The translations under genes were made by a program, and so were the position numbers. The notes below the pieces were generated by a model that worked only from the letters and a program-made list of their open reading frames with translations, searched no databases and was not told where the DNA came from. Below are positions 19,253-54,993 of a stretch of DNA of 64,000 bases, one piece after another (within the stretch, counting starts at the first letter, position 1; every line of letters begins with the position of its first letter). Source of the DNA: a virus (lineage: Duplodnaviria > Caudoviricetes); the IMG/VR virus record IMGVR_UViG_3300033148_003473, positions 1,552-65,551 of that record; one strand, written 5' to 3'.

Positions 19253-20554
19253 CTACTCCGCAAGGTCCCGCTGAAGTTCCATGTCTATATAGGGCAGGTC
19301 GAGCTTTTCGGCCACGTGCCTTTCGACTCGCCCGTCAGGGCTCGGCGTGAAAATAAAGCCTGCCTGCGAAGCCTGCAGCAGGGCCTTGGTCCACTGTTCC
19401 ATGTCCTCCTTCTCGATATCGCCGTGTACGAGTTGGGGCATGGTGTCCATGTCGAAGCCGTTCAGCCGCCACAGCCTCGGAATAGCGTGGCGGTTGAATA
19501 CGCTCGTTATCTCGTCGAGGTAGGCACCAAGAGCAATCGCAAAGACGTTGGTTTTGCTACTGGACAACGCGAAGCTGCCCACTTTCTCGTGACCTATTAG
19601 CAGGAAGTCGGCCAGTACCGTCATGGCGAGACGCTGGTCGTAATATTCGATAATGCTTTTCACGTCGAACTGCCGCTGGCCGCCGGTGGAGAGCAGTTTG
19701 ATTGTGACCAGCGGGTCGCCGTTGTCGTCGCGGGGGGCCGGAAGCACAACACCTTCCTGCTCGTCGCGGCGAATATTGGTGACTATCTCCTTGAACTCGT
19801 CCTCGAACGCTTTCAGAATCTCGGGGTCACCCTCGATTATCGGATAGCCCGCCAAATCGCGTTCCACGCCGATACCAAGTATGTTCTCAAGGTTCTGCTT
19901 GAAGTACCAGGGACGGAAGGCATTACGCAGCACTGCCATACCCTCGGGGTTACCCTTGTGTGAACCGGCACGGAAGAGCAATAGCTTGTGGTAGGGGATA
20001 TACGCTGTCTCGTAGCTGTTGGGCAGGCGCTGGGCGAGCCCCTGCAGCTCGCCAGAGTCGTCGAAGTCCCAGGTGCTAATGGTATCCTGGGCGCGGATCG
20101 GAATCTTGGCCCAGCCAATCTTACCGTCGTCGTACTGACTCGGCTGCGGGCCACTCCCGGGCCTTGAAGCGTTGTAGCCTGGTGGCACCTCGCCCTGCCT
20201 CCGCTTATAGACCAGTTCATGGACCGAGAAACCGTAGGGGATAAACGTCAGTATTTCCGTCAGCGTGTTTTGCCACGAGTCGGACATGTCGCCCAGGCAC
20301 GATTCCAGAAAGTCTGCCCCTTCCTGCGCCTCGGGAGTATCGTCAGCTGGCTCGGCGTTCCACGGCACCTGGCGGCACATGAGGTCCACCAGCCGGAATA
20401 CCGCCCCCAGCACCGGGTCGTTGTAGAGCATTTCCCTGTAGGTACGGTAGCGGCGGGCATACTGGAGGTCACGCAAAAACTCCTCCTGCACCTTGCCGCC
20501 CCACTGGGCGAGACCGCGCTTGCCGTAGATTTTGAGGTCGAGCTTTTCAGCCAT
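19253..20554 (-). CDS. portal protein (DUF935 / Mu gp29-like)
   Basis: YGFSVHELVYK, GNPEG..LRNAFRPWYFK, GVERDLAGYP, GSFALS, IPRLWRLN; follows TerL. Confidence 0.9.
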   Translation of the reverse strand: MAEKLDLKIYGKRGLAQWGGKVQEEFLRDLQYARRYRTYREMLYNDPVLGAVFRLVDLMCRQVPWNAEPADDTPEAQEGADFLESCLGDMSDSWQNTLTEILTFIPYGFSVHELVYKRRQGEVPPGYNASRPGSGPQPSQYDDGKIGWAKIPIRAQDTISTWDFDDSGELQGLAQRLPNSYETAYIPYHKLLLFRAGSHKGNPEGMAVLRNAFRPWYFKQNLENILGIGVERDLAGYPIIEGDPEILKAFEDEFKEIVTNIRRDEQEGVVLPAPRDDNGDPLVTIKLLSTGGQRQFDVKSIIEYYDQRLAMTVLADFLLIGHEKVGSFALSSSKTNVFAIALGAYLDEITSVFNRHAIPRLWRLNGFDMDTMPQLVHGDIEKEDMEQWTKALLQASQAGFIFTPSPDGRVERHVAEKLDLPYIDMELQRDLAE

Positions 20555-21947: not shown

Positions 21948-22338
21948 GCGTGTCCACCTCTTTGCGTTCCGTTGGTTCACCGGAGAGTAGCTGGGCCTTG
22001 TCGATAAGCGTGCCAATGGCTGTGGTCATGTGGTGAATGGCGGCCTTGTCCAGCCGCTCCCTTGAGTCCACCTCGTCGAGCATGGTACGGATTTTCTGCC
22101 AGGCAATCTCCACGAACTCTGCCTTGCGCTCTACCAACTCGTCGCTGGCCCGCTGCCAGGCGCGCTCGTTAATGGCCTGCCTGCGAGCCTCCCAGTTATC
22201 CTGCCTCGCCCAGTTCTGGAGCGTTGGTATGGACGGTTCGCGTTCGCGGCTTATCTCGGCCAAAGATTTGCCCATGCAGTAGTAGGTGAAGCAAGTTAGT
22301 CGCTCCTTATCGCTATAGGCGTATCCGGGGCCAGCCAT
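21871..22338 (-). CDS. terS: terminase small subunit (HTH)
   Basis: N-terminal HTH (SLAEIS...TLQNWARQDNW); directly upstream of TerL. Confidence 0.7.
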   Translation of the reverse strand: MAGPGYAYSDKERLTCFTYYCMGKSLAEISREREPSIPTLQNWARQDNWEARRQAINERAWQRASDELVERKAEFVEIAWQKIRTMLDEVDSRERLDKAAIHHMTTAIGTLIDKAQLLSGEPTERKEVDTLADREELAGRIRRLAERTETEADTG

Positions 22339-23975: not shown

Positions 23976-24200
23976 GGCCCGCTCCGCCGCCCCTACGTAA
24001 GAAGCCCACATATGAACGCAGGCCTTCGAGTTGGCAGAGCGGGAATGATTGTCTCCGAGTCCCACGGGCCCACATTCCCTCCAGCCCGTCATTCGCCCTG
24101 TCGTTGCTCCACCGCTCGGAGAATGAGTGTGGCCCCACCCGACTGCCGCAGCTGGTTGGCCAATTGCCTGAGGGTTTTCTGCCGTCATGATAGTGGGGCC
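23976..24200 (-). ncRNA. three tandem ~70-nt stem-closed RNA domains
   Basis: closing stems 24131-24138/24193-24200, 24052-24059/24115-24122, 23978-23988/24033-24043. Confidence 0.5.
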
Positions 24201-32173: not shown

Positions 32174-34333
32174 TCATGAACCCACCTCCCATACGCGGTT
32201 AAACAGTGGGCAGTCGTCCTCGATGCGCCGTCGTGACATATCTGTGTACTCGGGGTTTAGCTCGATGCCGATGAACGCCCTCCCCTTCCGTGTTGCTACA
32301 AGGCCCGTTGTGCCTGCGCCAGCGAAGGGGTCGAGTACGATGCTCTTGCCACTGCCGTCGTTGCCTTCGCAGGTGCAGGTGGGTTGCCAGCTGGTGGTCT
32401 CTCGTGTTGTCTGCCAGCCGCGTTCAGGTGGAGCTGCCTTGCCCATGCGTTGGTGTGCGAGGCTCTTCGTGCGCCCCGCGTCGTCGCGTTCGCTCAACTC
32501 TGTGCGCTCTACTACCCGCGCCCACGGTGCCCCACAATGCGGGCAAGCTTTCGGGCTTGCTCCGGCGAGGATGCAGGGTTCAATGAGCTTGTCGGGAAAA
32601 ACTGCGAAGTGACTTCCGGGGAATGGCTGCGTCGCCACGGTCCAGACATCCCGCTTGTTGCGGCCCTTGGCGCGCTGCGTACTAACATGGACGCTACTAC
32701 CGTCGCCATGTGAGGAATTGGACACCCCTCGAGGTTGATTCGTGTATCTCGATGAACGGAAATCTGTACGGTCCATTGAGGTCTGCCACGGCTCCCGTAT
32801 CGCGTCAGCGTCGTAATAGTACCGTTGACTCTTGGCCAGCAGGAAGATGAACTCATGCGCCCGCGTGGGCCTGTCTGTTACGCTTTCCGGGAGCGGGTTC
32901 GGTTTGGAGTTATGGGTGAGTACGCCGCTTGCCAGCGCGAACAAATGTGGCCCGTCGGCTACCCCGATATCCCAAAACTTGCGAGCACGGCTCCTGCCGA
33001 TAGCAACAATTTCTGTGTCGGGCTTCGCATTAAAGTGGTTACTCGGGTCAAACCGAATTTCCCCACGGAACGCTGGGTAGGTCTTATCGCCAATGTTGGC
33101 CGTTGAGAGATTTATCCGCAGTTGGATTCCGAGCCGAGCAGCAATCGTTCGCAAGTCTTCAGCCCACGCATAGTTCCTGGTGAAGCCCAGCCGCCAGCGG
33201 TTGTTGTGCGGTTCATGGTGGCCGTCGCCTTCGAGATAACCCTGCAGGAGTGCCCGCAGGAACCCGTTGCTTCTTTGCCATGCGGCGGTCGTCAGGTGTT
33301 TGGTCTTTGCCGAGGACCCGCTCACATAGGTGTCGATGATGCCTTCGAGCACCTTACCCGTGAGGTTGATGCTCATGGCCTTGCCGCCCGTGTGGTACGT
33401 ATTGCAGGTGCCATGATAGGCCCGGGCAATTTTCGCCAGCCGCTCGGCGCGTCGCGTTTCCTTGACATGCGCGGCTACTTGAAGCTTGCTCCGAGATTTA
33501 CTACCCTCAGCGATATACATGCCGACGAACCAACCAATGTCAGTATCGTCCAACCCCCCTGGGGACTCTGGTTGGTCGGCTTTGGGTATGATTGTGGACT
33601 GTATCACGTCACCCGCCTGTAGTTCGTCGGCTCTGAGCAAACCCCGCTGTGTCGGCCACCTGTGGGCCGGCGTGCAGCCAATGCGTTCGCCGCTGCGTAG
33701 CGTAATGGCAATAGGATTATCGGGCCTCGGCGTCTCCGACCAGCCCAATACCTGCGTCCACTTTTCGCCGTTCCAGAGCTGTACGGTTGAGGGGTCAAGG
33801 CGAACCATGTCCTTGATCGTCATGGGCATAACGCCTTTTTGCGTCTTGGCATAGACCTTCGTGCCGCCCGAAAGGCACCAAACTATGTCCGAGCGCAACC
33901 ACCAGCCATCGGCACGGAGGGCGAAGGCCACGGCCCACGGGATGCCCACAAGGTCTTTAGGTTTGAGCGCGTCAACCCGTGTCGGCCGGCCGTTCGCCTG
34001 TACCTCCACTACCTTACCCAGCTCAGACGTTACCCCGGCCGGCCCCTTGCCGCTCCCGTTGTAGGAGTCGCCGAGGTTGCACCAACAGGTTCCATCCGGC
34101 CGAAGCACCCGCCGCACCTCGCGGAATATCTCGACCAGCTTCTGCACGTACTCCTCGGGCGTGGGTTCAAGGCCGAGTTGCCCGTCTACCCCATAATCGC
34201 GAAGCGACCAGTAAGGGGGTGAGGTCACACACGTCTGCACACAGCCGTCAGGCATGTCGCGTAGCACGTTGAGAGCGTCACCCGTCTCCACATGCCATGT
34301 GCGCCTGCCCTCCAGTACGTCGGTGATGCTCAC
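32174..34333 (-). CDS. N4/N6 DNA methyltransferase containing an intein
   Basis: TSPPYW, KPKDLVGIPW, HFAVFP, VLDPFAGAGTT. Confidence 0.92.
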   Translation of the reverse strand: MSITDVLEGRRTWHVETGDALNVLRDMPDGCVQTCVTSPPYWSLRDYGVDGQLGLEPTPEEYVQKLVEIFREVRRVLRPDGTCWCNLGDSYNGSGKGPAGVTSELGKVVEVQANGRPTRVDALKPKDLVGIPWAVAFALRADGWWLRSDIVWCLSGGTKVYAKTQKGVMPMTIKDMVRLDPSTVQLWNGEKWTQVLGWSETPRPDNPIAITLRSGERIGCTPAHRWPTQRGLLRADELQAGDVIQSTIIPKADQPESPGGLDDTDIGWFVGMYIAEGSKSRSKLQVAAHVKETRRAERLAKIARAYHGTCNTYHTGGKAMSINLTGKVLEGIIDTYVSGSSAKTKHLTTAAWQRSNGFLRALLQGYLEGDGHHEPHNNRWRLGFTRNYAWAEDLRTIAARLGIQLRINLSTANIGDKTYPAFRGEIRFDPSNHFNAKPDTEIVAIGRSRARKFWDIGVADGPHLFALASGVLTHNSKPNPLPESVTDRPTRAHEFIFLLAKSQRYYYDADAIREPWQTSMDRTDFRSSRYTNQPRGVSNSSHGDGSSVHVSTQRAKGRNKRDVWTVATQPFPGSHFAVFPDKLIEPCILAGASPKACPHCGAPWARVVERTELSERDDAGRTKSLAHQRMGKAAPPERGWQTTRETTSWQPTCTCEGNDGSGKSIVLDPFAGAGTTGLVATRKGRAFIGIELNPEYTDMSRRRIEDDCPLFNRVWEVGS
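32909..33877 (-). mobile_element. intein with LAGLIDADG homing endonuclease (323 aa)
   Basis: W|CLSGGT...TPAHRWP...GWFVGMYIAEG...GYLEGDG...VLTHN|S. Confidence 0.92.
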
Positions 34334-35544
34334 ACTGCCACCCCGCTCTCCACGGCCATGATTCTCCGCCCTATCCATTCAATGACGGGCACCGTGACGG
34401 CGTTGCCCATTGCTCTGTAGCGGGGGCTGTCGGGGGTGTCCTCTCCGTCGATGGCTGTGAAGTCATCCGGAAAGCCCTGCAGCCGCTCACACTCCCGTGG
34501 CGTGAGCCGACGAACGCCCACACATGGTTGACGTTGCCCACCCTGCGCAGTGTTAAGCGTCGGGCATATTCCGTCGCTGTTCATACGGTGAACACCGTCA
34601 GGGCTTCGCGGTTCCCACAAGAGAGACGGCACCTGGTTCGTCCCGCTCGGTGCCCCACGCAGTGTCGGGCTCTGCTCCTCGCGGTAGCCGAGACTCCCGG
34701 CCTTTGCGGATTGGCCAGCAGAAAAGGCGGCCACCAACTGTCCGTCGGCGGCCTCCTCTGCGTTCGGCCCCTTGTATGCACGCTCCTTGAGTGTTCCTAT
34801 TGCTTCGGCTACAAAGGTTTCTGTTTCGCTGTCCATTCGAGTGCCCGTCGTAACGCATTTGGCAAGGCCCTGCCTCGCTTTCTCGCGCGGCGCAGGATTC
34901 CCCGGCAGGCTCTCGGGCTCAAATAGTACCTTGGCGGGATAGGCCCGGTTTCGAGAGTGTCCGACAATGAACACACGGCAGCGTCTTTGGGCCACTCCGA
35001 AGTATTGAGAGTCAAATATCCGATAGGCCCACCAGTAGCCGAGCTCTCCCAGCGTAGCTGTGACGGTCTCAAGGTCGCTTGTCTCTTCCACGTCCCACTG
35101 ACCCTCCACACTATCTGCCCATTTGCGAGCCTCTTCTTCCGAACCGAAATCGCGGGTTGGTATCTCGAACGGCGGCGGTTCAATGGGTGTCCAAGATGAA
35201 AGTAACCCAGGGACGTTCTCGATGAGAACCCAACGGGGAGCGAGTTCACCAACGATGCGAGCGAACTCGTGGAATAGTCCGGATCGCTCTCCAGCCAGTC
35301 CAGCACGGTTTCCAGCCACCGAGAGGTCCTGGCAGGGGAAACCTCCAGAGATAAGGTCAACTGATGCGAGTTCTGCTTTGCCAACATCTCTCACGTCCTT
35401 GAAGTGTTGTACCTCAGGCCAATGTGTCGTGAGCACCCTCTGGTTGAATCTGTCTATCTCGACCTGCCAGACAGGTTCCATGCCCGCACGTTCCAGGCCG
35501 AGGTCAAAGCCTCCAACACCGGCAAACAGCGACCCAAACCTCAC
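34330..35544 (-). CDS. C5 cytosine DNA methyltransferase
   Basis: SLFAGVGG, GGFPCQDLS, ENVPG, QRRCRVFIVG, RRLTPRECERLQGFPD, YRAMGNAV. Confidence 0.93.
   Translation of the reverse strand: MRFGSLFAGVGGFDLGLERAGMEPVWQVEIDRFNQRVLTTHWPEVQHFKDVRDVGKAELASVDLISGGFPCQDLSVAGNRAGLAGERSGLFHEFARIVGELAPRWVLIENVPGLLSSWTPIEPPPFEIPTRDFGSEEEARKWADSVEGQWDVEETSDLETVTATLGELGYWWAYRIFDSQYFGVAQRRCRVFIVGHSRNRAYPAKVLFEPESLPGNPAPREKARQGLAKCVTTGTRMDSETETFVAEAIGTLKERAYKGPNAEEAADGQLVAAFSAGQSAKAGSLGYREEQSPTLRGAPSGTNQVPSLLWEPRSPDGVHRMNSDGICPTLNTAQGGQRQPCVGVRRLTPRECERLQGFPDDFTAIDGEDTPDSPRYRAMGNAVTVPVIEWIGRRIMAVESGVAV
34809..35387 (-). CDS. overprinted alternative-frame methyltransferase beta-like subunit
   Basis: SLSDTLE..PPRYYLSPRACRGILRRA..RG..LP..L..ALE as in M.EcoHK31I-type beta peptides. 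Confidence 0.65.
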   Translation of the reverse strand: MLAKQNSHQLTLSLEVSPARTSRWLETVLDWLESDPDYSTSSLASLVNSLPVGFSSRTSLGYFHLGHPLNRRRSRYQPAISVRKKRLANGQIVWRVSGTWKRQATLRPSQLRWESSATGGPIGYLTLNTSEWPKDAAVCSLSDTLETGPIPPRYYLSPRACRGILRRARKRGRALPNALRRALEWTAKQKPL

Positions 35545-46215: not shown

Positions 46216-46434
46216 TTACTCAGTCGGTGTGGTATCATCAAGCAGGGCGCCAAACATCTCCTCGATGGTGCTGTCGAGCTTCCTGGCAATCAGGAGGGCG
46301 TCAACAACTGACACACCACGGACGACACCACGCTCAATCTTGTTGTAGTTGGTGCGGTGGCAGTTGAGGTAATCCGCCATGTCCTGTTGTGTCAGGTGCT
46401 TGGCCTTGCGGGCGTCGCGTAGGCGGTGTAGCAT
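46216..46434 (-). CDS. Cro-like XRE repressor
   Basis: LRDARKAKHLTQQDMA..YNKIERG. Confidence 0.85.
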   Translation of the reverse strand: MLHRLRDARKAKHLTQQDMADYLNCHRTNYNKIERGVVRGVSVVDALLIARKLDSTIEEMFGALLDDTTPTE

Positions 46435-46457
46435 TGGTTCACGTCACCTCCCGTGGT

Positions 46458-46583
46458 GTGAGATGGTTTCACCTGCTAACTCCAGTGTAGTGAAACCAAT
46501 TCACCTTGTCAAGCGTAAAATTGATATAGTGTTAATCTTTTTCACATATTAGTCGATATCGTGGAGGGGAGAATACCGTTCAC
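46458..46583. promoter_or_regulatory. immunity region: leftward promoter and GTGAA-N5-TTCAC operators
   Basis: TTGACA(46512)-17-TACACT on minus strand; operators at 46458 and 46490, weaker ones at 46531 and 46569. Confidence 0.7.
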
Positions 46584-46620
46584 GTTATAATGGAGGAAAC
46601 CTCGCATATGCCTTAGGAAG

Positions 46621-47118
46621 GTGAGTTCATTGCCCAGTTTTGCTGAGCGGCTGAAGAAACTCAGAAAAGAACGCGATATACGCCAGCGGGACCTTGCGGA
46701 AGTGGCCCGTGTGTCGCGGTCTGCCGTAGCTTACTGGGAATCGGGTAAGTCTGCCCCCAACACCCACACGCTGGCACGACTAGCTGACTATTTTGGTGTG
46801 AGCACAGACTATCTCATGGGCCGCACTGATAATCCTAAACCAAAGCCCGCGCCTTTTGACCCCACCAATGAGGATTGGCTCTTGCGTCCCAATTGCCCCA
46901 GTTACCTCAAACTACTGTACGAGGAACCCGACCTCCGCCCCCTGCTCGACGACTCGGAACTCCGCGCCATGCTGGTTGACCCCGAATTCCTCTCTGCTTC
47001 GGTCGAGATACGCCGCTCCGGCGAGGTGGACTACTGGAAAATCTTCAAGCGCATTGTGCGATATTTAGCTTTTGAGCTGTCGCAGGCCCGCCAATCGACG
47101 GATAACGATAGAAAGTAG
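46621..47118 (+). CDS. CI-like XRE repressor (no S24 peptidase domain)
   Basis: RLKKLRKE..QRDLA..VAYWESG..LADYFGVSTDYLMGRTD. Confidence 0.9.
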   Translation: MSSLPSFAERLKKLRKERDIRQRDLAEVARVSRSAVAYWESGKSAPNTHTLARLADYFGVSTDYLMGRTDNPKPKPAPFDPTNEDWLLRPNCPSYLKLLYEEPDLRPLLDDSELRAMLVDPEFLSASVEIRRSGEVDYWKIFKRIVRYLAFELSQARQSTDNDRK

Positions 47119-47192
47119 TTTAGTGCCAAAGGAACTCCATCCCTCGCGTCGAACCCTCTGAGTAAACCAGGCCCAAAAAATTTACCCGCTAT

Positions 47193-47206
47193 CGAACATA
47201 TGTTCG
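47193..47206. promoter_or_regulatory. perfect LexA box
   Basis: CGAACATATGTTCG upstream of ORF 47220 and the integrase. Confidence 0.8.
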
Positions 47207-47340
47207 CCCCTGAAAGGAGTTGTCCACCGTGCTCGTATTACGGCGTTGCGGCAAATGGGTTATAATCGTGGACAGGCAGGCTGAGGAGTGCGAACGGGTT
47301 ACAATGGCGGAGCTAATCGCACGAGGGGAGGCGGTAAAGC

Positions 47341-48498
47341 GTGGCAGTAACGCAGCTGGAGAACGGCACGTGGCGGGCCGGATGGGTTGTTGGAGTGGGC
47401 AGGGACGGGAAGAGGCTCTGGAAGTATCATCAGAAACCCGAATGGACCGGCGCAGGCGGTAAGAAGCAGGCCCAGCTCTACGCGGCGGCCCGCGAGCAGG
47501 AGGTCATGCTGGGTATGTACGCTGACCCCGACGGCATGACCGTGGGCGAGTATCTACGGCAGTGGCTGGACACCTACGGGGAATCGAACCTTGAACAGAC
47601 CACGCTGTCTGGTTATCGAGCTTACTGCGAAAACCACATTATACCCGAGCTCGGGTTCTTGCGGCTGGACAAGCTCCAACCCATGCACCTCCAGCAGTAC
47701 ATTACGAAGAAGTTGAGCTCGGGCCGGAAGGACGGAAAGCCCGGGGGATTGTCACCCACCACCGTCAGGCAACAGTTAGCAATTCTACACAAGGCACTCA
47801 ACATAGCTGTTCGCTGGCAGCTCGTAGCCCGTAACGTCGCCGACGTCGTGGACAAGCCCAGAAAGGCCGACCACGAGCACTCAATCTGGACCAGTGAACA
47901 GGCACTGCAGTTCCTGGAAGCGTGCGAGGGACACCGGCTGTATGCGCTGTACTGGTTGGCGATTACCACGGGCATGCGGCAGGGAGAACTTAAGGGGCTT
48001 CGCTGGCAGGACGTGAAGTGGCAGGCACACCATCTCGACCTTCGCCAGCAGATAACTGAGGACGCGAAGGGGAACCAGATAGTCACCACTCCGAAACAAC
48101 ATTCACAGCGGAAGGTTGCCGTGACCGAGCAGGACCTGTGGGTACTCAAGAAACACAGGGCCCTCATAGCCGAGGAGCGTTTACAGGCCGGATCCGCCTG
48201 GAGCGACGAGTGGGGCGACCTCGTGTTTCCATCGAGCGTCGGCACACCCCTCTACCGCAGAAACATCCGTCGCCATATGAAGCAGGTTATCCGCAAAGCC
48301 GGAGTCCCCGACATCACCTTCCACGAGCTGAGACATACCTCCGCAACGCTCTTACTGGAGCAGGGCATACACCCCGTAATAGTCTCCGAGCGACTGGGCC
48401 ATTCGGACGTATCCATCACCATGAACATCTACCAGCACGCCTTACCGCACATGCAGAAGGAGGCTGCCGAGAGGCTGGGTAAGGCGCTGGCAAAATAA
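47341..48498 (+). CDS. int: tyrosine integrase
   Basis: TTGMRQGEL.GLRW, FHELRHT, ERLGHS..ITMNIYQH. Confidence 0.95.
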   Translation: MAVTQLENGTWRAGWVVGVGRDGKRLWKYHQKPEWTGAGGKKQAQLYAAAREQEVMLGMYADPDGMTVGEYLRQWLDTYGESNLEQTTLSGYRAYCENHIIPELGFLRLDKLQPMHLQQYITKKLSSGRKDGKPGGLSPTTVRQQLAILHKALNIAVRWQLVARNVADVVDKPRKADHEHSIWTSEQALQFLEACEGHRLYALYWLAITTGMRQGELKGLRWQDVKWQAHHLDLRQQITEDAKGNQIVTTPKQHSQRKVAVTEQDLWVLKKHRALIAEERLQAGSAWSDEWGDLVFPSSVGTPLYRRNIRRHMKQVIRKAGVPDITFHELRHTSATLLLEQGIHPVIVSERLGHSDVSITMNIYQHALPHMQKEAAERLGKALAK

Positions 48499-48501
48499 AA
48501 C

Positions 48502-48775
48502 TGCGTACATTTTGCGTACTTTCCGAGTTTAGCAAGCGGATAGCTTAGAAAGGTGAAACCCCCGAAAGCCAGTAGATTCGGGGGTTTCGCGGTTGTAGGC
48601 CCTCAGGGATTCGAACCCTGGACACCCGGATTAAGAGTCCAGACCCGTACACCGCAGTAGTCCGCAGTAGTTGCGCTCAACACCGCATTCTGCCTGCCCT
48701 CCAGCGATTTGGAAACCGCACCCAACAGCACGAACCAGCAGTAGTACGCAGTAAAAATGCGTACTTTTTGCGTAC
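48502..48775. other. attP: core is the 3' half of tRNA-Lys(CTT) at 48596-48640, flanked by TGCGTAC arm repeats
   Basis: minus strand GGACTCTTAATCC...GGTTCGAATCC...; TGCGTAC at 48502, 48513, 48758, 48769. Confidence 0.85.
48555..48588. terminator. hairpin after integrase
   Basis: GAAACCCCCGAA / TTCGGGGGTTTC. Confidence 0.65.
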
Positions 48776-48779
48776 ATGC

Positions 48780-48968
48780 CTACTCCTCAACCCTCACCTC
48801 AATCTGCTTCGCCCGCTTGAGCTGGCTCTCCAGCTTGCTCGCCGCCCTTTTACTGGGCATATCAACGAACAGCTCCCCCGCAACCTCCTGTCGCCAACCC
48901 TCGTATTCCTCCCATGCCAACCTTACCGCAACCGTGATGCGATTGAACTTCATGTTCTCCTCGGCCAT
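48780..48968 (-). CDS. hypothetical protein
   Basis: GGAGGT RBS. Confidence 0.5.
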   Translation of the reverse strand: MAEENMKFNRITVAVRLAWEEYEGWRQEVAGELFVDMPSKRAASKLESQLKRAKQIEVRVEE

Positions 48969-49256
48969 GCTCTGCACCTCCCGTTTTCCTATCCCTATGC
49001 ACTGTTCGCTCAATTGTTGCATACTCTGTTCGTGCAGAGCGTACAGATAGAACACCAAACGAACAGATATGGTCTGTACGCTCTGATAGAATAGAGAGCA
49101 CCGCGAACGAAGGGAGCGGTGCGAACGGAGGCGGACGAGCCATGCTGGGGTATATCGGGGTCCTGCTCATTGGGTACGCAGTGTACCATATCTGGCTGGA
49201 ACTGACATTCTGGAGCCGCCACAGGAGGTTTGAAATGACCATGTTACGCATGGAGC

Positions 49257-50168
49257 GTGAGTACAGTGGACGACGACGTTAGGCGCGTGGGCGAGACACT
49301 GGGTAGAGAAGCAGTGCTGGGGGCTAAACGGTTAGCAGACGCGGTGCTCAACGGGCCGGTGAAGGTCACAGGTCTACCTCAGCCCGGTGACAACCTCGGG
49401 ACTGGTGGCCCACCGGCCAGGGGGAGTGGTTCGTTCACGACCTCCGCAGGCAGTTTCCCCGGCGGGAGTGGACCGAATCTCCAGGTGGTGCCGCCGTGGT
49501 GGATACCGTCGAGGATTCACACGCAACGCGAATGGACGCTCTGGGACATGGGGCAGCAGGCGATAGCACTCGCGCTCGCGGTGCTGATTGTGCCGGAGAC
49601 GCGGGAGTGGGTCATCTCAACCGTGACGACCATGGCGCACGAGGAGCCGTTACGGTTCGCTCAACTAGTCGCCCCGTGGGTAGCTATCGTGGGGTTGGCT
49701 CTGGGTGTCAGGGTGGGCATATTCGAACGACGCAGTAAAGCCGAGCAGGAGTTTTCCGCAGTCTGCGAGGCGCTCAACTGGGAGGTCAGGGTTATCCGCA
49801 GGCAGGAGCTCGACGGTGACGGGGTGAGATTAACGTGTGCAATCCCACACCACCTCTCGGTGGACAGTTTTACGCAACAGCGGCAGGTATTTCAAATGCA
49901 CACCAACCGCCATGTAAGCCTGAAACGCAGCAAGAACCATCTGGTCGTGGAGCTGTGGCCGGTGCAGGAGGAGGTAATCAGATATGCCGAAATTGGCAGT
50001 CCCCTTGGGGAGGGCGCAGGGCCGGTGGGTATACGCAGATTTGCCCAGCTGGCCGCATTTGCTCGTTGGTGGGGAGACTGGTGGAGGAAAGTCCCGGTGG
50101 ATAGCGCAGATGATAATGTACCTCGCCGAGAACCACCCTCCGCAAACGGTCGAGTTCACGCTGATTGA
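49257..50168 (+). CDS. membrane protein, probably the N-terminal partner of FtsK
   Basis: two TM segments; last ~60 codons overlap the FtsK ORF. Confidence 0.55.
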   Translation: MSTVDDDVRRVGETLGREAVLGAKRLADAVLNGPVKVTGLPQPGDNLGTGGPPARGSGSFTTSAGSFPGGSGPNLQVVPPWWIPSRIHTQREWTLWDMGQQAIALALAVLIVPETREWVISTVTTMAHEEPLRFAQLVAPWVAIVGLALGVRVGIFERRSKAEQEFSAVCEALNWEVRVIRRQELDGDGVRLTCAIPHHLSVDSFTQQRQVFQMHTNRHVSLKRSKNHLVVELWPVQEEVIRYAEIGSPLGEGAGPVGIRRFAQLAAFARWWGDWWRKVPVDSADDNVPRREPPSANGRVHAD

Positions 50169-50919
50169 CTTCAAGGAAGTCGAGTACATGGACTTCTGGC
50201 AATTACCGCATATTGAGAGCTACGCAGTTAATCTCCAGGAGGCCCGAGATACATTGTACGCACTGATAAACGAACTTAATCGCCGCAAACAGCTGTTCCG
50301 CAGGGCCGGGGTAAACCGCATAGAGCGTTATAATAGTCAAACCCCAAAGGACAACCGTTTACCGTATCGAATAGTGATAATCGACGAGTATGCCGACCTC
50401 AAGCGGGAGCGGGTTAAACGCTCGGAACTCAGCCTATCGGACATGGTTATGTTGCTGGCACAGAAAGCCAGGTTTGTCGGGTTGCACCTCATATTGTGCG
50501 TGCAAAGACCAAGCACGCAGATAATCTCAGGTGACATCAAGGCCAACATTCCCGCCAGGCTCGCATTCCGCATGTTTTCAGAGACGGACTCACGGGTCAT
50601 CCTCGACGCACCCGATGCGGCATATCTCGAATATGAAGGTGAGGCCATTTACAAATGGCGCTCAGAATTAGTCAGGTTGAAAGGCGCATATCTCGACGAG
50701 GAGGAGGCGGAGCAGCGGTGTGCGATAGTCGCGACCAGGTACCGTTCTCACACCGCGCCCGGGCCCGGGGAAAGGCGAGGGACCGCAAAATCCTCGAGCT
50801 CGTTGAACGCTTCCACTTCGTCGATTCCGCAAGCGTGGCGAGGCTTTTCATGCGCTTTAAAACGGGCCCGCGAGTGGCTCAACGACGCCTCAAGGCCCTC
50901 CACGACGCAGGACTTTTAA
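49984..50919 (+). CDS. FtsK/SpoIIIE-family ATPase
   Basis: PHLLVGGETGGGKS, IDFK, IIDEYADL, ARFVGLHLILCVQRP, DSRVILD. Confidence 0.9.
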   Translation: MPKLAVPLGRAQGRWVYADLPSWPHLLVGGETGGGKSRWIAQMIMYLAENHPPQTVEFTLIDFKEVEYMDFWQLPHIESYAVNLQEARDTLYALINELNRRKQLFRRAGVNRIERYNSQTPKDNRLPYRIVIIDEYADLKRERVKRSELSLSDMVMLLAQKARFVGLHLILCVQRPSTQIISGDIKANIPARLAFRMFSETDSRVILDAPDAAYLEYEGEAIYKWRSELVRLKGAYLDEEEAEQRCAIVATRYRSHTAPGPGERRGTAKSSSSLNASTSSIPQAWRGFSCALKRAREWLNDASRPSTTQDF

Positions 50920-51365
50920 AACGTAATCGCGAGCACTTCAGCGACGCCTACGTGTACTACCTCGGCAAGTGGTCACGCAACTACCTGCACTGGCTGGAGC
51001 TGCTCGACGCATATATATGCACATGGGAAATGTATGGAGTGCAGCTTGAATCATTCGCGCTCGAACAGGAGCTGACGATTGACTCCATCGGCGGCGGTGA
51101 AACGCTCAGGCCCGACGCAGTAGCGACGATAGATAGTAAGACCCTGCTCATCGAGATTGAGCGGGTGCCGCGCTGGAGCGACTACGCAAAATACGCCTGG
51201 GCGTGGCGCATGGGACAGCTGCCCGGCCTCGTGGTGCTGTTTCTGCCAAGCCGACGCAGGCTGGAGAATCGTGACCGCGTGCCATTGGTGCAGGGAGTGT
51301 TGAGTGGCAAAAAACAGGCCCTCCGGCTCGCGGTGGAGGCTTATGAGGATCTGTTCCGCAGGTGA
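50718..51365 (+). CDS. Replic_Relax (replication-relaxation) family protein
   Basis: RDRKILELVERF..AQRRLKAL; LRPDA..LIEIE; follows FtsK. Confidence 0.75.
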   Translation: MCDSRDQVPFSHRARARGKARDRKILELVERFHFVDSASVARLFMRFKTGPRVAQRRLKALHDAGLLKRNREHFSDAYVYYLGKWSRNYLHWLELLDAYICTWEMYGVQLESFALEQELTIDSIGGGETLRPDAVATIDSKTLLIEIERVPRWSDYAKYAWAWRMGQLPGLVVLFLPSRRRLENRDRVPLVQGVLSGKKQALRLAVEAYEDLFRR

Positions 51366-51396
51366 GGCGTTCCGCAGAAATGCTTTCCGCGAATAC

Positions 51397-51424
51397 AAAA
51401 GGCCCCCTCCGCAGTGGAGGGGGC
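51397..51424 (-). terminator. intrinsic terminator after tRNA
   Basis: GCCCCCTCC/GGAGGGGGC followed by CTTTTG. Confidence 0.65.
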
Positions 51425-51432
51425 TGGGGTTG

Positions 51433-51521
51433 CGGAGGGGGTGGGGTTCGAACCCACGGAGGGCGTGAATCCTCAACGATTTAGCAAGCCGATGCCTTCA
51501 GCCAGATTCGGCCACCCATCC
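51433..51521 (-). tRNA. tRNA-Ser(GCT), degenerate
   Basis: TGGCCGA D-arm, TTGCTAA loop, long variable arm, GGTTCGAACCC; mismatches in acceptor and anticodon stems. Confidence 0.65.
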
Positions 51522-51560
51522 CCAGTGCTCAATGGGCGGGCTTTGCGTGGTATGCGTGGA

Positions 51561-51588
51561 ACAGCGTATATCCCCTACCACAAGCTAT
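51561..51588 (-). repeat. 28-bp exact inverted copy of portal gene positions 19981-20008
   Basis: ATAGCTTGTGGTAGGGGATATACGCTGT. Confidence 0.95.
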
Positions 51589-51615
51589 ACCGTTCACGGC
51601 ACGTCATTTGGGCAC

Positions 51616-51645
51616 AAAAAAAGACCCCCTCCCGTAGGAGGGGGT
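51616..51645 (-). terminator. intrinsic terminator
   Basis: ACCCCCTCC-TACG-GGAGGGGGT followed by CTTTTTTT. Confidence 0.8.
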
Positions 51646-51660
51646 TATGGTCTGTGGCGA

Positions 51661-51930
51661 CTATTCATAAAGCGCGGCCAGATCCTCACGGATCTGCGCG
51701 ACGCGCTCGTCGTCAACCGGGCGACTCCGATAAAACCGGGCACTGCGGTATGTAACCCACAGTACGCCGTCGCGGTAGTCAATCTGTGTCTCCTCGTCAC
51801 CGTCCACCGTGTCGAACACGACGGCGGTTGACGGCAGTTCATCGCGGTCGTAGTCGCTGAGCGGCCAGCAGGCGACTTCACGGTATCCGTCTGCTGTCCT
51901 GGTTTCGGAACCTTGAAAGAAGACAAACAT
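51661..51930 (-). CDS. small acidic hypothetical protein
   Basis: AAAGGGAG RBS; 89 aa. Confidence 0.6.
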   Translation of the reverse strand: MFVFFQGSETRTADGYREVACWPLSDYDRDELPSTAVVFDTVDGDEETQIDYRDGVLWVTYRSARFYRSRPVDDERVAQIREDLAALYE

Positions 51931-52024
51931 TGTTGCGCTCCCTTTCACCGGCCCCTGCTCGTCAGGGGTGCGGGCCGGTTGGATTTTGCACCCGACCGGG
52001 CCGCTAGTTGGCCCGGTTTCGCGG

Positions 52025-52897
52025 TTAGTTCTCGATTGTGTCGCGGAGTGGCCAGTCATCGCCAACTCGCCGAACTGCGAGGGTCATCGTTGCCCAGTCT
52101 TCATCGAGTCCCCGAAGGGCCTCGATGCCCTCCTGTGCCTCCTCGACGCTATCAAACTCGTTCGCGTCACTCGCCCCCAGTCCGTCAGTCGTCCACTCTG
52201 AGCCGGGCGAGGCAGTCAGTGGGGTGACGATTTCGTACATTTCGTCCTCCTCCTCGTCGCAGTCGAGGTCGTAGTACACACCCCGACGGTCGAGCTCCTC
52301 GGTGATTTCGCGCACGACCTCTGTGGCAATCTCGAATGCCTCGCCGTATGCCCTCCATCCCCTGTCTGGCTGGTGCGTGGGGTCCTGCCAGTCAGAGTCA
52401 CCGGGGCGAAAATCCGTGGCCTCGTCGATGGCCTCGCGCAGCGCGTCGGCGTCGGCCTCGCGCACGCGGACCTGCCACGCCGCGCTACCCGGGTGTGCGT
52501 CGAGCATATCGCACACGTCGCAGCTGCAGTACTCACCCGGCACCCAGGTGAGCCCGGTCGGCAGCTGGGCCACCAGGTCGGCGAGGTTGTCGAACATTTC
52601 CCGGCTGTGTGCGGGCAGGTCGCCCTTGGCAACCGTCAGCTGATAGCCTTCGGCCTGTCGGCTGGCGCCATAGGTGTAGTTGTCATAGCGAGCTTCGCAG
52701 TAGTCGTGCCTGCGAAGCAGGTTCTCGATAATCCTCGTCATTCTTGTGCCCTCCTCTGGGGTGTTGAAATAAACCTGGTCTACAGCTTCGCGTACCAGGT
52801 CGCTCATGCTGGTACGCTTCCGTATTGCGAGGATTTTCAGTTCCTCAAGTTGCTGACGCTCGAAATAGACCGTTGCTCTCTCCATGTCGTCTGTCAT
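52025..52897 (-). CDS. RHH/CopG domain fused to acidic hypothetical domains
   Basis: RATVYF..QLEELKILAIRKRTSMSDLVREAVD; internal RBS+ATG at 52741 and 52240. Confidence 0.7.
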   Translation of the reverse strand: MTDDMERATVYFERQQLEELKILAIRKRTSMSDLVREAVDQVYFNTPEEGTRMTRIIENLLRRHDYCEARYDNYTYGASRQAEGYQLTVAKGDLPAHSREMFDNLADLVAQLPTGLTWVPGEYCSCDVCDMLDAHPGSAAWQVRVREADADALREAIDEATDFRPGDSDWQDPTHQPDRGWRAYGEAFEIATEVVREITEELDRRGVYYDLDCDEEEDEMYEIVTPLTASPGSEWTTDGLGASDANEFDSVEEAQEGIEALRGLDEDWATMTLAVRRVGDDWPLRDTIEN

Positions 52898-53164: not shown

Positions 53165-53438
53165 ATCACACCTCCTTTACGGTGTTTGGAAAAGTAGCAG
53201 GAGATACTGCGACGGGCATGGTATTCGGTCCGGCCCAGTACGGCCCTTAGCACCCATGCAGTTGCCGTCTAACACGGATAGGGCAGGCGGTCCGGGCGAT
53301 GTCCTGTCCCTATCCGTGCGTTCTCTCCCAATGTTTGAATCCTGTGTGGTGGGTCGGACCCGGAAGTCCGGCCCGGTGTTGCATCAAATCGCGGTTTGGA
53401 TTTGAAAGCTCCACAGGAAACCGGGGCAGACAATGCAA

Positions 53439-53639
53439 CTAGCGAACCAGCAGCTTCAGGCCAGCGTGCACCGCGCACGACATGCCCAAACCGGCATTCG
53501 CTTTACCGCATATCAGCCAGGGGCAACCGCACGATGTGTAGTAGCCCGTGACCTCCTGCGGTCCCTGCCAGGTATGAAGCAGGATTGTGGCACCCTTCGG
53601 GTAATCACCACGCATGTACTGTGCAACCGTGATAGTCAA
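53439..53639 (-). CDS. small hypothetical protein
   Basis: first ORF after the strong promoter. Confidence 0.45.
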   Translation of the reverse strand: MTITVAQYMRGDYPKGATILLHTWQGPQEVTGYYTSCGCPWLICGKANAGLGMSCAVHAGLKLLVR

Positions 53640-53876
53640 TCAGACTAAGCCCCCTTCGTTGGGATTGACCCCGGCCTCCTGTGGAGGCTTCAAACCTCCT
53701 GCCCGGTAAACCCCAGGCCTCTCAACCGGCTTTCATTCGTCTCCCTGCGCTTTGCGTGCCCCGCTCGCGCTCGCCCTCTCGGGGTCCTGGCGGTCGTGGC
53801 AGAGTCTGCTCCACGTGTGTCCCTTACTTGCCGGTCTCTATTCGGTTTTCAAGGTGCCGTTTCTCTTACTATCTAC

Positions 53877-53905
53877 ATTATAACGCCATGGCGTTATGGT
53901 GTCAA
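53877..53905 (-). promoter_or_regulatory. consensus sigma-A promoter with 18-bp palindromic operator
   Basis: TTGACA-17-TATAAT; ATAACGCCATGGCGTTAT at 53880-53897; boxA-like CACCTTGAAAAC downstream. Confidence 0.85.
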
Positions 53906-54423
53906 GTCGTTATAGCAAAAAAGTTGAGAAATTTTCGAAAAAGTTTTGGCTATACTGGCGGATCGGGGAGATAGCGTGGCCAGGAGCACACCAGGAGGAG
54001 GGGCAATTCAGGACACGGAACACGGAGGGAGCACCGACAGGAGGCTGGGTAGTGACACGTCGAGCGAGACAGTCTGTAGCATGACAGACATGGTGGGACA
54101 AGTTCGGTGGGACAAGCTAGCTTAGTGGTCACTGGAGGGGTTACGGTTGAGGGGACAGGCTCATGGTAGGCGGGGGAGTAGAGGGAGGGCAGACTGAGCT
54201 GTGGGAGGGGTAGAGGGAGGTAGATCGGGGCGGGGACGTTATTAGCTCAACTCATGTCGCTGATACGAGAAAAAATGAGTGTGACCTGTTGCTAACACCT
54301 GGTCACCTACTCATAACACCTGCTCACAATACCGCTATCACCCAAAAGCGGTACTCTATTCGAGCAAAACAGAGCCCGGGCAGAAAACCCGGGCCAGGAC
54401 AGCATAAACGGTACTGTATTGTG

Positions 54424-54993
54424 TTAATCACCAGCGGCCAGCCGGAAGCCCCTCAGCGCGTCCTCCAGCTCCTCGTCAACGACGTGTGTGTAAATCATGG
54501 TCGTGGACAGGTCAGAGTGGCCCAGGGCTTTCTGGACAAGCCGTATGTTCTTGGTCTCCCGATACAGGTCTGTCGCGAACGTGTGGCGAAGCATGTGTGG
54601 GTGAACGTCTTTCGTTATCCCGGCCTTACGAGCCAGGCGTTTCACCATGGCCCTTAGGTACCTGGCACTGAGCTGGCCTCCCTGCAGCGTCACGAACAGG
54701 TGTTCTCCCGACGGTCTTACCTCCCGCCACCCACGAAGCTTCTCCAGTGTGGCCTCGTTGAGCCACAGTACCCGGTCTTTCGCGCCCTTCCCCTCTCTCA
54801 CGAACAGCTTCCCACTGGTCCAGCCGATATGCTCCGGTTTGAGGTTCAACAGCTCACTGGCCCGTAATCCCACGTCGAACATGACTCTCAGCATGCAGTG
54901 ATTGCGTAACCCCGTTGGGCACCCCTGGTTGGGCTGAGCCAACAACCTCTTCTGCTCCCTCTCCGTCAGCACCTCTGGCAAGCGTCTACCCAT
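54424..54993 (-). CDS. short tyrosine recombinase (catalytic domain only)
   Basis: GLRASEL, GKGAKDR, HPHMLRHTFAT, LGHSDLSTTMIYTH. Confidence 0.92.
   Translation of the reverse strand: MGRRLPEVLTEREQKRLLAQPNQGCPTGLRNHCMLRVMFDVGLRASELLNLKPEHIGWTSGKLFVREGKGAKDRVLWLNEATLEKLRGWREVRPSGEHLFVTLQGGQLSARYLRAMVKRLARKAGITKDVHPHMLRHTFATDLYRETKNIRLVQKALGHSDLSTTMIYTHVVDEELEDALRGFRLAAGD

What the first reader, a model, noticed from the sequence alone, without database searches (positions are those of the whole stretch)
51545..51605. 28-nt perfect antisense to the portal mRNA in a hairpin upstream of a tRNA
Seen: 51561-51588 is an exact inverted copy of portal coding sequence 19981-20008, far too long for chance in 64 kb. 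On the minus strand, the same strand as tRNA-Ser 40 nt downstream, it is complementary to portal mRNA. The flanks (CGTG-AACGG-TATA / TATA-CG-CTGTT-C-CACG) fold to expose GCUUGUGGUAGGGGA as a loop. Inference: a trans-acting guide or antisense RNA released by tRNA processing that silences the portal (superinfection or lysogeny control). Alternatives are a decoy for a host crRNA or an inversion substrate.
Basis: partly seen in the sequence, partly recalled or inferred. Interest (0 to 1): 0.78.

Follow-up and report, generated by a model that had tools for sequence, protein, structure and literature searches.

The report
Portal-gene fragment copied beside a tRNA-like site
A complete temperate phage genome carries one exact 28-base inverted copy of its own portal gene beside a decayed tRNA-like sequence; the copy is real, but nothing available shows whether it makes a regulatory antisense RNA or is a recent copying accident.

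Summary
The core observation holds. Window 51561-51588 is an exact inverted copy of 19981-20008, and these are the only two copies in the 65,551-bp phage genome. About 4e-8 such pairs are expected by chance. The source lies in the portal ORF (codons 183-192). A minus-strand transcript of the copy would be antisense to portal mRNA and would sit 39 nt upstream of a tRNA-Ser(GCU)-like sequence.

- The tRNA is degenerate and looks like an attP remnant of the nearby integrase module.
- The proposed loop-exposing hairpin is not favoured (-7.3 against -18.2 kcal/mol) and no fold beats shuffles.
- A strong terminator ends 27 nt upstream, leaving no room for a promoter, and none was detected.

The decisive test, co-variation in relatives, cannot be run. 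The nearest portal among 5.8 billion protein clusters is 61% identical, and no DNA relative or sequencing run was obtained.

In 23 distantly related prophage regions, no comparable inverted patch occurred.

My odds:
- young non-functional templated duplication: about 0.40
- functional trans-antisense RNA, analogous to STnc6030: about 0.28
- inversion substrate, CRISPR-related element or artefact: the rest, each minor

The repeat is real and odd, and its function is unproven.

The parts
51561..51588 (-). 28-nt ectopic copy; read on the minus strand it is perfectly complementary to portal mRNA
   Evidence: exact, sharp boundaries, flanks unrelated
19981..20008 (-). source/target segment inside the portal ORF, codons T183-L192 (TAYIPYHKL/L), just before and overlapping the invariant IPxxKxLLFR block
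   Evidence: codon usage and GC unremarkable (14th and 11th percentile within the gene)
19253..20554 (-). portal gene (433 aa)
   Evidence: Pfam Portal_Mu 1.7e-40; followed upstream by terminase large subunit 20562-22016
51433..51521 (-). degenerate tRNA-Ser(GCU)-like sequence, probable attP remnant; no 3' CCA (GCAA)
   Evidence: Rfam 37.9 bits; ARAGORN only with -ps; disruptive changes relative to phiKM1 tRNA-Ser mostly in the 5' half
51522..51560 (-). 39-nt spacer between the 28-mer and the tRNA-like 5' end
51616..51645 (-). intrinsic terminator (9-bp GC stem plus T7) ending the upstream minus-strand genes, 27 nt before the 28-mer
51395..51424 (-). second, near-identical terminator directly after the tRNA-like sequence; with the first it brackets a 222-bp module
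   Evidence: this hairpin pattern occurs only twice in the window, 0 in shuffles
46621..51365 (+). plus-strand lysogeny-type block: HTH repressor 46621-47118, tyrosine integrase 47341-48498, FtsK/SpoIIIE 49984-50919, Replic_Relax 50655-51365; it ends 68 nt from the tRNA-like 3' end
43051..43749 (-). ERF single-strand annealing recombinase (relevant to templated-patch and inversion scenarios)
   Evidence: Pfam ERF 5.6e-41
54424..55077 (-). short (217 aa) tyrosine recombinase 2.8 kb from the copy; considered as a possible invertase
   Evidence: Pfam Phage_integrase 1.8e-43

Best explanation
The 28-mer is a real, evolutionarily young, short templated duplication. A piece of the phage's own portal coding sequence was copied in inverted orientation into a dispensable non-coding gap. 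That gap lies between two terminator hairpins, in the arm of a decayed tRNA-Ser-like attP remnant.

Inferred mechanism: during replication or break repair in this hairpin-rich spacer, a 3' end annealed ectopically to the portal gene on another genome copy. The phage encodes an ERF annealase, and many genome copies coexist in an infected cell. The end copied about 28 nt and then returned to the original template.

What is shown: the copy, its sharp edges, its setting, the direction of copying (the portal copy is conserved coding sequence, so it is the original), and the lack of promoter or structure signals.

What is inferred: the copying mechanism and the lack of function. Any antisense RNA would arise only from read-through of the upstream terminator.
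For: - The identity is exact and 28 nt long, and it drops to 23-27% in the flanks. This fits one recent copying event rather than a decayed larger duplication or a protein-binding site.
- It sits in one of the few places where an insertion is tolerated: a 222-bp non-coding module bracketed by duplicated terminators.
- The adjacent tRNA is degenerate. Its disruptive changes are mainly in the 5' half and its 3' half and terminator are intact. It lies at the end of an integrase block. This is the pattern expected of an attP remnant, not a dedicated RNA gene.
- No promoter-like site was found in 51000-52200. The terminator's T-run ends 27 nt before the 28-mer.
- No fold is better than shuffles.
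- The target segment shows no nucleotide-level peculiarity.
- An ERF recombinase is present.
Against: - No such patch was seen in the controls: 23 distantly related prophage regions, 1.49 Mb.
- All 8 isolated exact repeats of 22 nt or more in those controls look like mobile-element ends. Seven are direct and att-like. The one inverted pair is 24 nt, 2 kb apart, and flanks a DUF4277 ORF.
- Random ectopic patches are therefore rare, and their mechanism in phages is poorly documented.
- A 28-bp inverted repeat in a genome with an annealase is a liability, because inversion would break the portal gene. Persistence therefore needs either youth or benefit.
- The orientation and strand are exactly what an antisense regulator needs.
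- With a single genome, age and selection cannot be measured.
Confidence: 0.4

Rival explanations
1. Functional trans-encoded antisense RNA. Transcripts that read through the upstream terminator, for example anti-terminated late transcription or a weak upstream promoter in the lysogen, carry the 28-mer in the 5' leader of the tRNA-like element. RNase P cuts at the tRNA-like 5' end and frees the leader. The leader forms a 28-bp duplex with portal mRNA, an RNase III-size substrate. This lowers portal synthesis in superinfecting kin, or tunes the phage's own portal level.
For: - Perfect 28-nt complementarity in the right orientation, on the strand of the tRNA-like gene and of both terminators.
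- The acceptor (6 of 7 pairs) and T arm are intact, so RNase P recognition is plausible.
- The target region of portal mRNA is predicted to be weakly structured: z = +1.57, and 190 of 200 shuffles fold at least as well.
- Precedent: prophage BTP1 expresses the antisense RNA STnc6030 against structural genes and thereby excludes superinfecting BTP1 (PMC7067206, passages read; review PMC12197685, passages).
- No neutral patches of this kind were seen in the controls.
Against: - No promoter-like site, and no room for one between the terminator and the 28-mer.
- A strong terminator lies immediately upstream.
- The MFE fold sequesters most of the 28-mer and no fold beats shuffles.
- The tRNA is degenerate.
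- The plus-strand lysogeny operon has no plus-strand terminator before this region. Lysogenic read-through would therefore make the sense strand here.
- The 9 codons are only partly conserved even in the 61% relative (TAYIPYHKL against EVLIPIEKA), so only near-identical phages would be hit.
- No Rfam family matches the leader at E<=5.
Confidence: 0.28
2. Recombination substrate. The two 28-bp copies are crossover sites for site-specific recombination (the 217-aa tyrosine recombinase 2.8 kb away) or homologous recombination (ERF or RecA). Recombination would invert the 31.6-kb segment, acting as an on/off switch of portal expression or as an unintended source of defective genomes.
For: - Inverted orientation and exact identity, with a length near the minimum usually quoted for efficient homologous recombination (recalled).
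- A short tyrosine recombinase and an ERF annealase are encoded.
- In the controls, isolated exact repeats are typically recombination-site or transposon ends.
Against: - Inversion would fuse portal codons 1-191 to a 55-residue Arg-rich read-through of ORF 51414..51755 and orphan the C-terminal 241 codons. No alternative portal would be produced.
- The 28-mer has little internal dyad symmetry (6 of 14 positions, by inspection).
- It shares nothing with the inverted repeats next to the small recombinase.
- No read data were available to look for junctions (one search listed none).
Confidence: 0.07
3. CRISPR-related element: a solitary spacer or mini-array borrowed to use host Cas proteins, or a decoy for a host crRNA.
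For: - The size (28 nt) and sharp edges resemble a spacer.
- Viruses are known to carry mini-CRISPR arrays against competitors (PMC6858448, search listing and start of abstract only).
Against: - The two flanks are not repeats of each other.
- No flanking duplication of a repeat-length target is present.
- No cas-like domain was found among the 44 ORFs I scanned.
- A perfect match to the phage's own essential gene would be self-targeting.
- The bases 5' of the protospacer (AGCA) and 3' of it (CTC) do not fit the common PAMs I recall (for the sequence; the PAMs are recalled).
Confidence: 0.03
4. Assembly or amplification artefact in the metagenome-derived record.
For: The record is a single metagenomic assembly seen on one contig. 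No reads could be laid on it (one search listed none).
Against: The 28-mer is embedded in unique sequence on both sides at both loci. A graph assembler needs reads spanning all four junctions to place it twice. A chimeric read would need two junctions 28 nt apart and would have to be the consensus. This is reasoning, not a test.
Confidence: 0.05

Closest known systems
STnc6030 antisense RNA of Salmonella prophage BTP1 (PMC7067206, passages read)
   Same: A temperate phage carries an RNA complementary to its own virion-gene mRNA. When expressed, it blocks infection by the same phage but not by a relative, through base pairing.
   Different: STnc6030 is cis-encoded (opposite its target), 786 nt long, has mapped transcription starts and is highly expressed. 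Here the copy is trans-encoded, 28 nt, 31.6 kb from its target, has no visible promoter, and its expression is unknown.
Immunity RNAs of phages P1/P7 (c4) and P4 (CI), matured by RNase P
   Same: Small trans-acting phage RNAs, cut out of longer transcripts by tRNA-processing enzymes, that pair with phage mRNA to control lytic functions.
   Different: Those RNAs use short, split complementarities to regulatory targets and have conserved structures. Rfam found no family over the leader at E<=5. Here there is one long perfect match to a structural gene and no significant structure.
tRNA spacer-derived regulators such as 3'ETS-leuZ (recalled; only review listings seen)
   Same: A by-product of pre-tRNA processing acts by base pairing.
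   Different: That case is a 3' spacer of a functional host tRNA operon and sponges sRNAs. Here it would be the 5' leader of a degenerate phage tRNA-like sequence, pairing with an mRNA.
Phage attP sites that overlap a tRNA gene copy, e.g. Komagataeibacter phage phiKM1 with an integrase next to tRNA-Ser
   Same: A tRNA-Ser(GCU)-type sequence lies at the end of an integrase module in a temperate phage genome. Mean column identity to the phiKM1 tRNA is 86%.
   Different: The phiKM1 copy is a regular annotated tRNA. The window's copy has three stem-breaking changes and carries the portal fragment in its upstream arm. No host tRNA matching its 3' 42 nt was found.
Virus-borne mini-CRISPR arrays (PMC6858448, listing and abstract start only)
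   Same: A short exact fragment of a virus gene stored in non-coding viral DNA.
   Different: There are no repeats, no cas context, and the match is to the phage's own genome.
Invertible segments with crossover sites inside coding sequence (Mu G, P1 C; recalled)
   Same: Inverted repeats of about 30 bp, one of them inside an ORF that reads through it.
   Different: Those switches offer an alternative in-frame C-terminus and have an adjacent invertase. Here inversion would only truncate the portal.

Membership tests
Functional tRNA gene | Cloverleaf with a 7-bp acceptor stem and a 5-bp anticodon stem, detected by standard tRNA finders | tested here: inconclusive
   Rfam tRNA 37.9 bits, above the gathering score of 29. 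ARAGORN at default finds none and finds it only with -ps. There is a U4.C69 mismatch, 3 of 5 anticodon-stem pairs, and no encoded CCA.
attP overlapping a tRNA gene | Integrase gene nearby, and a tRNA-derived sequence whose 3' part is kept while the 5' part is free to decay | tested here: met
   The tyrosine integrase 47341-48498 lies in the same plus-strand block, which ends 68 nt from the tRNA-like 3' end. Relative to phiKM1 tRNA-Ser, the stem-breaking changes are G4T, G27T and T31C in the 5' half and C43T. An intact terminator follows the 3' end.
attP overlapping a tRNA gene | An identity block with a host tRNA gene (attB) | tested here: not met
   The 3' 42 nt have 0 exact matches in genome contigs. 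In 40 genomes that carry related prophages, only T-arm/acceptor stretches of 27-44 nt match, in 9 of the 40. The host may simply be absent from the collections.
Base-pairing antisense/immunity RNA | Extended complementarity to a target mRNA in the antisense orientation | tested here: met
   28 of 28 nt against portal codons 183-192.
Base-pairing antisense/immunity RNA | Own promoter and terminator defining a transcript | tested here: not met
   A terminator is present downstream, after the tRNA-like part. There are 0 promoter-like sites in 51000-52200 and only 27 nt between the upstream T-run and the 28-mer.
Base-pairing antisense/immunity RNA | Expression and effect on the target | not testable with these tools
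   No sequencing run was listed. No relatives are available for co-variation.
Base-pairing antisense/immunity RNA | Stable structure presenting the pairing region | tested here: not met
z = -0.38 (61 nt), -0.12 (94 nt) and +0.98 (201 nt).
CRISPR array / mini-array | Spacer flanked by direct repeats | tested here: not met
   The flanks are not similar to each other.
CRISPR array / mini-array | cas genes in the element, or a repeat matching the host's array | tested here: inconclusive
   No cas domain in the 44 ORFs scanned with Pfam or PHROGs. Not all ORFs were scanned, and the host is unknown.
Site-specific DNA inversion switch | Inverted crossover sites plus a recombinase, giving two functional configurations | tested here: not met
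   Inverted sites are present, and a 217-aa tyrosine recombinase lies 2.8 kb away. The inverted configuration would truncate the portal after codon 191, adding 55 unrelated residues.

The most novel reading that the evidence does not exclude
A temperate phage stores a 28-nt perfect antisense 'memory' of its own portal gene in the 5' leader of a tRNA-like element at the prophage end. tRNA-processing enzymes release it, and it silences the portal mRNA of superinfecting near-identical phages or throttles the phage's own portal synthesis. This would be a trans-encoded, spacer-sized, protein-independent immunity RNA.
Probability: 0.27. Interest if true: 0.75.

Novelty: new variant of a known kind. 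Interest (0 to 1): 0.42.

Why it matters
If the copy is expressed and active, it would be a minimal sequence-specific exclusion or self-regulation device: one short antisense segment riding on tRNA processing. It would be distinct from the long cis-antisense RNA of BTP1 and from CRISPR. It would also suggest that short ectopic copies of virion genes in phage non-coding DNA deserve systematic screening.

If it is only a templated patch, it is a clean natural example of long-range short-patch copying in a phage genome. It would also be a latent 28-bp inversion hazard.

Either way, the case is cheap to settle once the phage or its reads are in hand.

Tried and rejected
RELATIVES FOR CO-VARIATION
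- The exact 28-mer and a codon-degenerate version had 0 hits in viral contigs.
- The portal protein found 1 relative at 40% in viral contigs and 1 at 40% in metagenome contigs.
- The portal alignment A1 found 165 relatives in genome contigs. The best 80 were kept, and all were <=49% identical by tblastn. The 40 of these re-scored were <=52%.
- In the phage isolate collection, 1673 records matched, all below 60%, with the best at 44.2%.
- The portal's 90% cluster has 1 member on 1 contig.
- In 5.8 billion protein clusters the best hit is 61%, on a 1,348-bp contig. The other 118 relatives listed are <=53% (the query itself is the 120th row). 5118 proteins reached E<=1e-50 among the 8000 candidates scored.
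- Lysogeny-module proteins in viral contigs: Replic_Relax 0 relatives, integrase 0, FtsK 5 loci at 31-34%.
- A 38-nt query over the 28-mer gave 3 chance-level hits (E = 6) in phages and none in plasmids.

HOST
- The tRNA 3' 42-mer had 0 hits in genome contigs.
- The leader plus tRNA, searched against 40 genomes carrying related prophages, matched 9 of 40, and only over T-arm/acceptor stretches.

READS
- The look-up of sequencing runs: none was listed and no RNA holder was listed.

OPERATOR IDEA
- The 12-mer ATACCGTTCACG abuts the 28-mer and recurs just upstream of the TATAAT of the repressor gene.
- This is compatible with chance: 7 exact 12-mers were found for the 400-nt query.
- With up to 2 mismatches there were 5 matches against 4.6 expected.
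- GTTCACG occurred 13 times against 9.9 expected.

ISLAND IDEA
- I considered that the plus-strand block is an element inserted in a phage tRNA. No att-like duplicate of the tRNA was found.

NEIGHBOURING ORFS
- ORF 51661-52065 and the small ORFs gave no family. The Atlas hits were below its 0.8-0.9 noise range.

CONTROLS: WHAT WAS LEFT OUT
- Of the 80 loci kept, I searched 40 genomes.
- I fetched regions for 24 of them.
- I analysed 23. The single piece fetched for G020 (L168) was not analysed.

TOOLS AND SOURCES NOT AVAILABLE
- Paper supplements were not consulted.
- In-print status was searched only. None of the listings or passages I saw describes a short trans-encoded antisense copy of a portal gene, but this is not an exhaustive search.

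Full report
WHAT IS THERE

The window is bases 1552-65551 of a 65,551-bp virus record with direct terminal repeats, so it is effectively a complete genome.

Window 51561-51588 on the plus strand reads as the exact reverse complement of 19981-20008. Three results agree:
- The repeat finder reports it as the only 100% pair among 21 inverted pairs. The rest are 73-90% complementary.
- A short-word BLAST of 51300-51700 against the window gives this 28-nt match at E = 3.5e-10, and nothing else longer than 12 nt.
- A search of the whole genome finds just these two places.

A 28-nt pair is expected about 4e-8 times by chance in 64 kb. Identity collapses at once outside the 28 nt, to 23% and 27% over 30 nt.

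WHICH COPY IS THE ORIGINAL

19981-20008 lies in ORF 19253..20554 on the minus strand. This ORF is a Mu-type portal protein (Pfam Portal_Mu 1.7e-40), directly downstream of a large terminase.

The 28 nt are codons T183-L192 (TAYIPYHKL plus the first base of L192). They overlap the start of the most conserved block of this portal family, IPxxKxLLFR, where P187, K190 and L192-R195 are invariant in a 5-sequence alignment.

The portal copy is therefore coding sequence under protein constraint, and the other copy is derived from it. Codon usage and GC of the segment are unremarkable, at the 14th and 11th percentile within the gene.

SETTING OF THE DERIVED COPY

Minus-strand genes occupy most of the genome:
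- Early genes: ERF recombinase, replication protein O, two DNA methylases.
- Terminase, portal and virion genes.
- A lysis cassette with an LLH holin and an Amidase_3 endolysin.

A plus-strand block at 46.6-51.4 kb carries an HTH repressor, a tyrosine integrase, an FtsK/SpoIIIE protein and a Replic_Relax protein.

The copy lies in the 300-bp gap between the end of this block (51365) and the last minus-strand ORF (51661 onward). On the minus strand the order is:
- an intrinsic terminator at 51645-51624, with its T7 run ending at 51616;
- 27 nt of spacer;
- the 28-mer (51588->51561);
- 39 nt of spacer;
- a tRNA-like sequence (51521->51433);
- a second terminator (51424-51402).

The scan found 5 terminator-like hits in 51000-52200, all on the minus strand, against 0.8 expected. 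The two hairpins are near-copies of each other. Their pattern occurs nowhere else in the window, with 2 matches against 0 in shuffles. The 222-bp module is therefore bracketed by a duplicated terminator.

THE tRNA

ARAGORN at default settings finds no tRNA in the window. Rfam scores the sequence at 37.9 bits against a gathering score of 29. ARAGORN calls tRNA-Ser(gct) only with lowered thresholds.

It has a U4.C69 mismatch, only three of five anticodon-stem pairs, and no encoded CCA. Aligned to the regular tRNA-Ser of Komagataeibacter phage phiKM1, which sits next to that phage's integrase, the stem-breaking differences are G4T, G27T and T31C in the 5' half, plus C43T. The T arm, variable arm and 3' acceptor strand are intact.

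A well-kept 3' half with its own terminator, a decaying 5' half and an integrase block alongside are what one expects of an attP derived from a tRNA gene. That is an inference. The matching host tRNA was not found: 0 exact hits for the 3' 42-mer, and only T-arm/acceptor matches in 9 of 40 genomes with related prophages.

TESTS OF THE ANTISENSE READING

The strand logic is right. A minus-strand transcript would pair perfectly with portal mRNA over 28 nt, and that part of the mRNA is predicted to be weakly structured (z = +1.57).

The rest is not supportive:
- No sigma-70-like promoter is found in 51000-52200 (0 against 0.4 expected). This phage does appear to use such promoters: TTGACA-17-TACACT stands before the cro-like gene, by inspection.
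- Only 27 nt separate the terminator's T-run from the 28-mer. That is too little for a -35/-10 promoter plus a start site upstream of the full antisense segment.
- Any RNA carrying the full 28-mer must therefore come from read-through of a strong terminator.
- Folds of 61, 94 and 201 nt do not beat shuffles, with z = -0.38, -0.12 and +0.98.
- The pairing between the two flanks is matched by 23% of random windows.
- Rfam sees nothing but the tRNA over the module at E<=5. The other listed hits sit on the terminators and score far below their thresholds.
- On the plus strand neither hairpin is followed by a T-run. Lysogenic transcription of the integrase block would therefore run through here and make the sense strand.

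COMPARATIVE EVIDENCE IS NOT OBTAINABLE

Portal relatives:
- Its 90% cluster holds one sequence on one contig.
- The nearest of 5.8 billion clusters is 61% identical and sits on a 1.3-kb contig. The other relatives listed are 53% or lower.
- Scans of viral, metagenome and genome contigs and of isolate phages gave nothing above 52%.
- In the 61% relative, the nine residues read EVLIPIEKA. The segment is therefore lineage-specific apart from I, P and K.

Other searches:
- The lysogeny-module proteins have no close relatives.
- The exact and codon-degenerate 28-mers are absent from viral contigs.
- No sequencing run was listed, so expression and inversion junctions could not be examined.

BASE RATE

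I fetched up to 80 kb around the portal gene of 23 distantly related prophages (47-52% portal identity). These 23 regions were taken from the 40 genomes searched. They total 1,488,696 bases. I listed all exact repeats of 18 nt or more at distances above 500 nt.

Of 58 pairs, 8 were at least 22 nt with both flanks under 50% identity:
- Seven were direct repeats, mostly at prophage-like or island-like spacings, so att-like.
- One was inverted: 24 nt, 2,036 nt apart, enclosing a 582-aa ORF with DUF4277. From recall, this domain is associated with IS transposases.

One 20-nt direct repeat touched a portal ORF (G013). No control showed a long-range inverted patch like the one here.

Such patches are therefore rare, below about 1 in 23 regions. 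Isolated exact repeats usually mark mobile-element ends. This weakens the 'mere accident' reading somewhat but does not establish function. The finding was itself selected from a very large scan.

WEIGHING

Both the neutral reading and the functional reading need the same rare copying event. They differ only in whether the copy is kept by selection.

They left the bare complementarity.

A precedent exists for antisense control of virion genes as superinfection exclusion. STnc6030 of prophage BTP1 is 786 nt, cis-encoded and highly expressed, and its effect is specific to BTP1 (PMC7067206, passages; review PMC12197685, passages). RNase-P-matured immunity RNAs are known from P1/P7 and P4 (recalled). 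The model is therefore biologically reasonable.

My odds:
- Young, non-functional templated duplication into the attP-arm spacer: 0.40.
- Functional trans-antisense RNA: 0.28.
- Inversion substrate: 0.07. Inversion would only truncate the portal.
- Artefact: 0.05.
- CRISPR-related: 0.03. There are no repeats and the match is to self.
- Something not considered: the remainder.

NOVELTY AND VERDICT

The repeat is real and statistically extraordinary, but it is a single instance in an orphan genome.

If functional, it would be a new variant of phage antisense immunity: trans-encoded, spacer-sized and tRNA-linked. If not, it is a tidy example of long-range short-patch copying.

Interest is 0.42. 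Read mapping and one strand-specific RNA experiment would settle the question.

Noticed in passing
window 53180-53700 (minus strand); wider gap 53180-54420: About 1.2 kb has no convincing ORF. The 521-nt stretch folds far better than shuffles on the minus strand: -232 against -196 +/- 7.6 kcal/mol, z = -4.69, 0 of 100 shuffles as good. The plus strand gives z = -2.77. A long-range closing helix pairs 53401-53426 with 53669-53694. No Rfam match at E<=1. This is a candidate large structured RNA between the lysis cassette / short recombinase and the RHH gene.
   Followed up: partly
window 51397-51424 and 51616-51645: Two near-identical terminator hairpins (CCCCCTCC-N4/5-GGAGGGGG plus a T-run on the minus strand) occur only here in the window. 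They bracket the 222-bp leader+tRNA module. Their stem also matches the tRNA-like 3' acceptor strand (11 of 11 nt).
   Followed up: partly
window 46573-46584 and 51587-51598: The 12-mer ATACCGTTCACG abuts the 28-mer and also lies directly upstream of a perfect TATAAT before the repressor gene. This is compatible with chance by the counts.
   Followed up: yes
window 32174-34378 (-): An N6/N4 DNA methylase is interrupted by an intein with a LAGLIDADG domain. A C-5 cytosine methylase follows at 34330-35544.
   Followed up: no
window 23978-24043 (-): Rfam DUF3800-VIII RNA motif, 56.5 bits against a gathering score of 40.2.
   Followed up: no
window 54424-55077 (-): A second, short (217 aa) tyrosine recombinase consisting essentially of the catalytic domain lies next to the non-coding stretch above. 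Its role (dimer resolution, inversion, remnant) is unknown.
   Followed up: partly
window 46430-46620: A divergent repressor / cro-like control region. It has a near-consensus minus-strand promoter (TTGACA-17-TACACT, by inspection) and an inverted repeat GTGAGATGGTTTCAC / GTGAAACCAATTCAC. These are likely operators.
   Followed up: no
G014, G017, G018, G025 control regions (L130-L144, L160-L163): Four related Lachnospiraceae-type prophage neighbourhoods share a 66-76-nt exact direct repeat about 7.7-8.8 kb apart. It looks like the att sites of a small integrated element.
   Followed up: no
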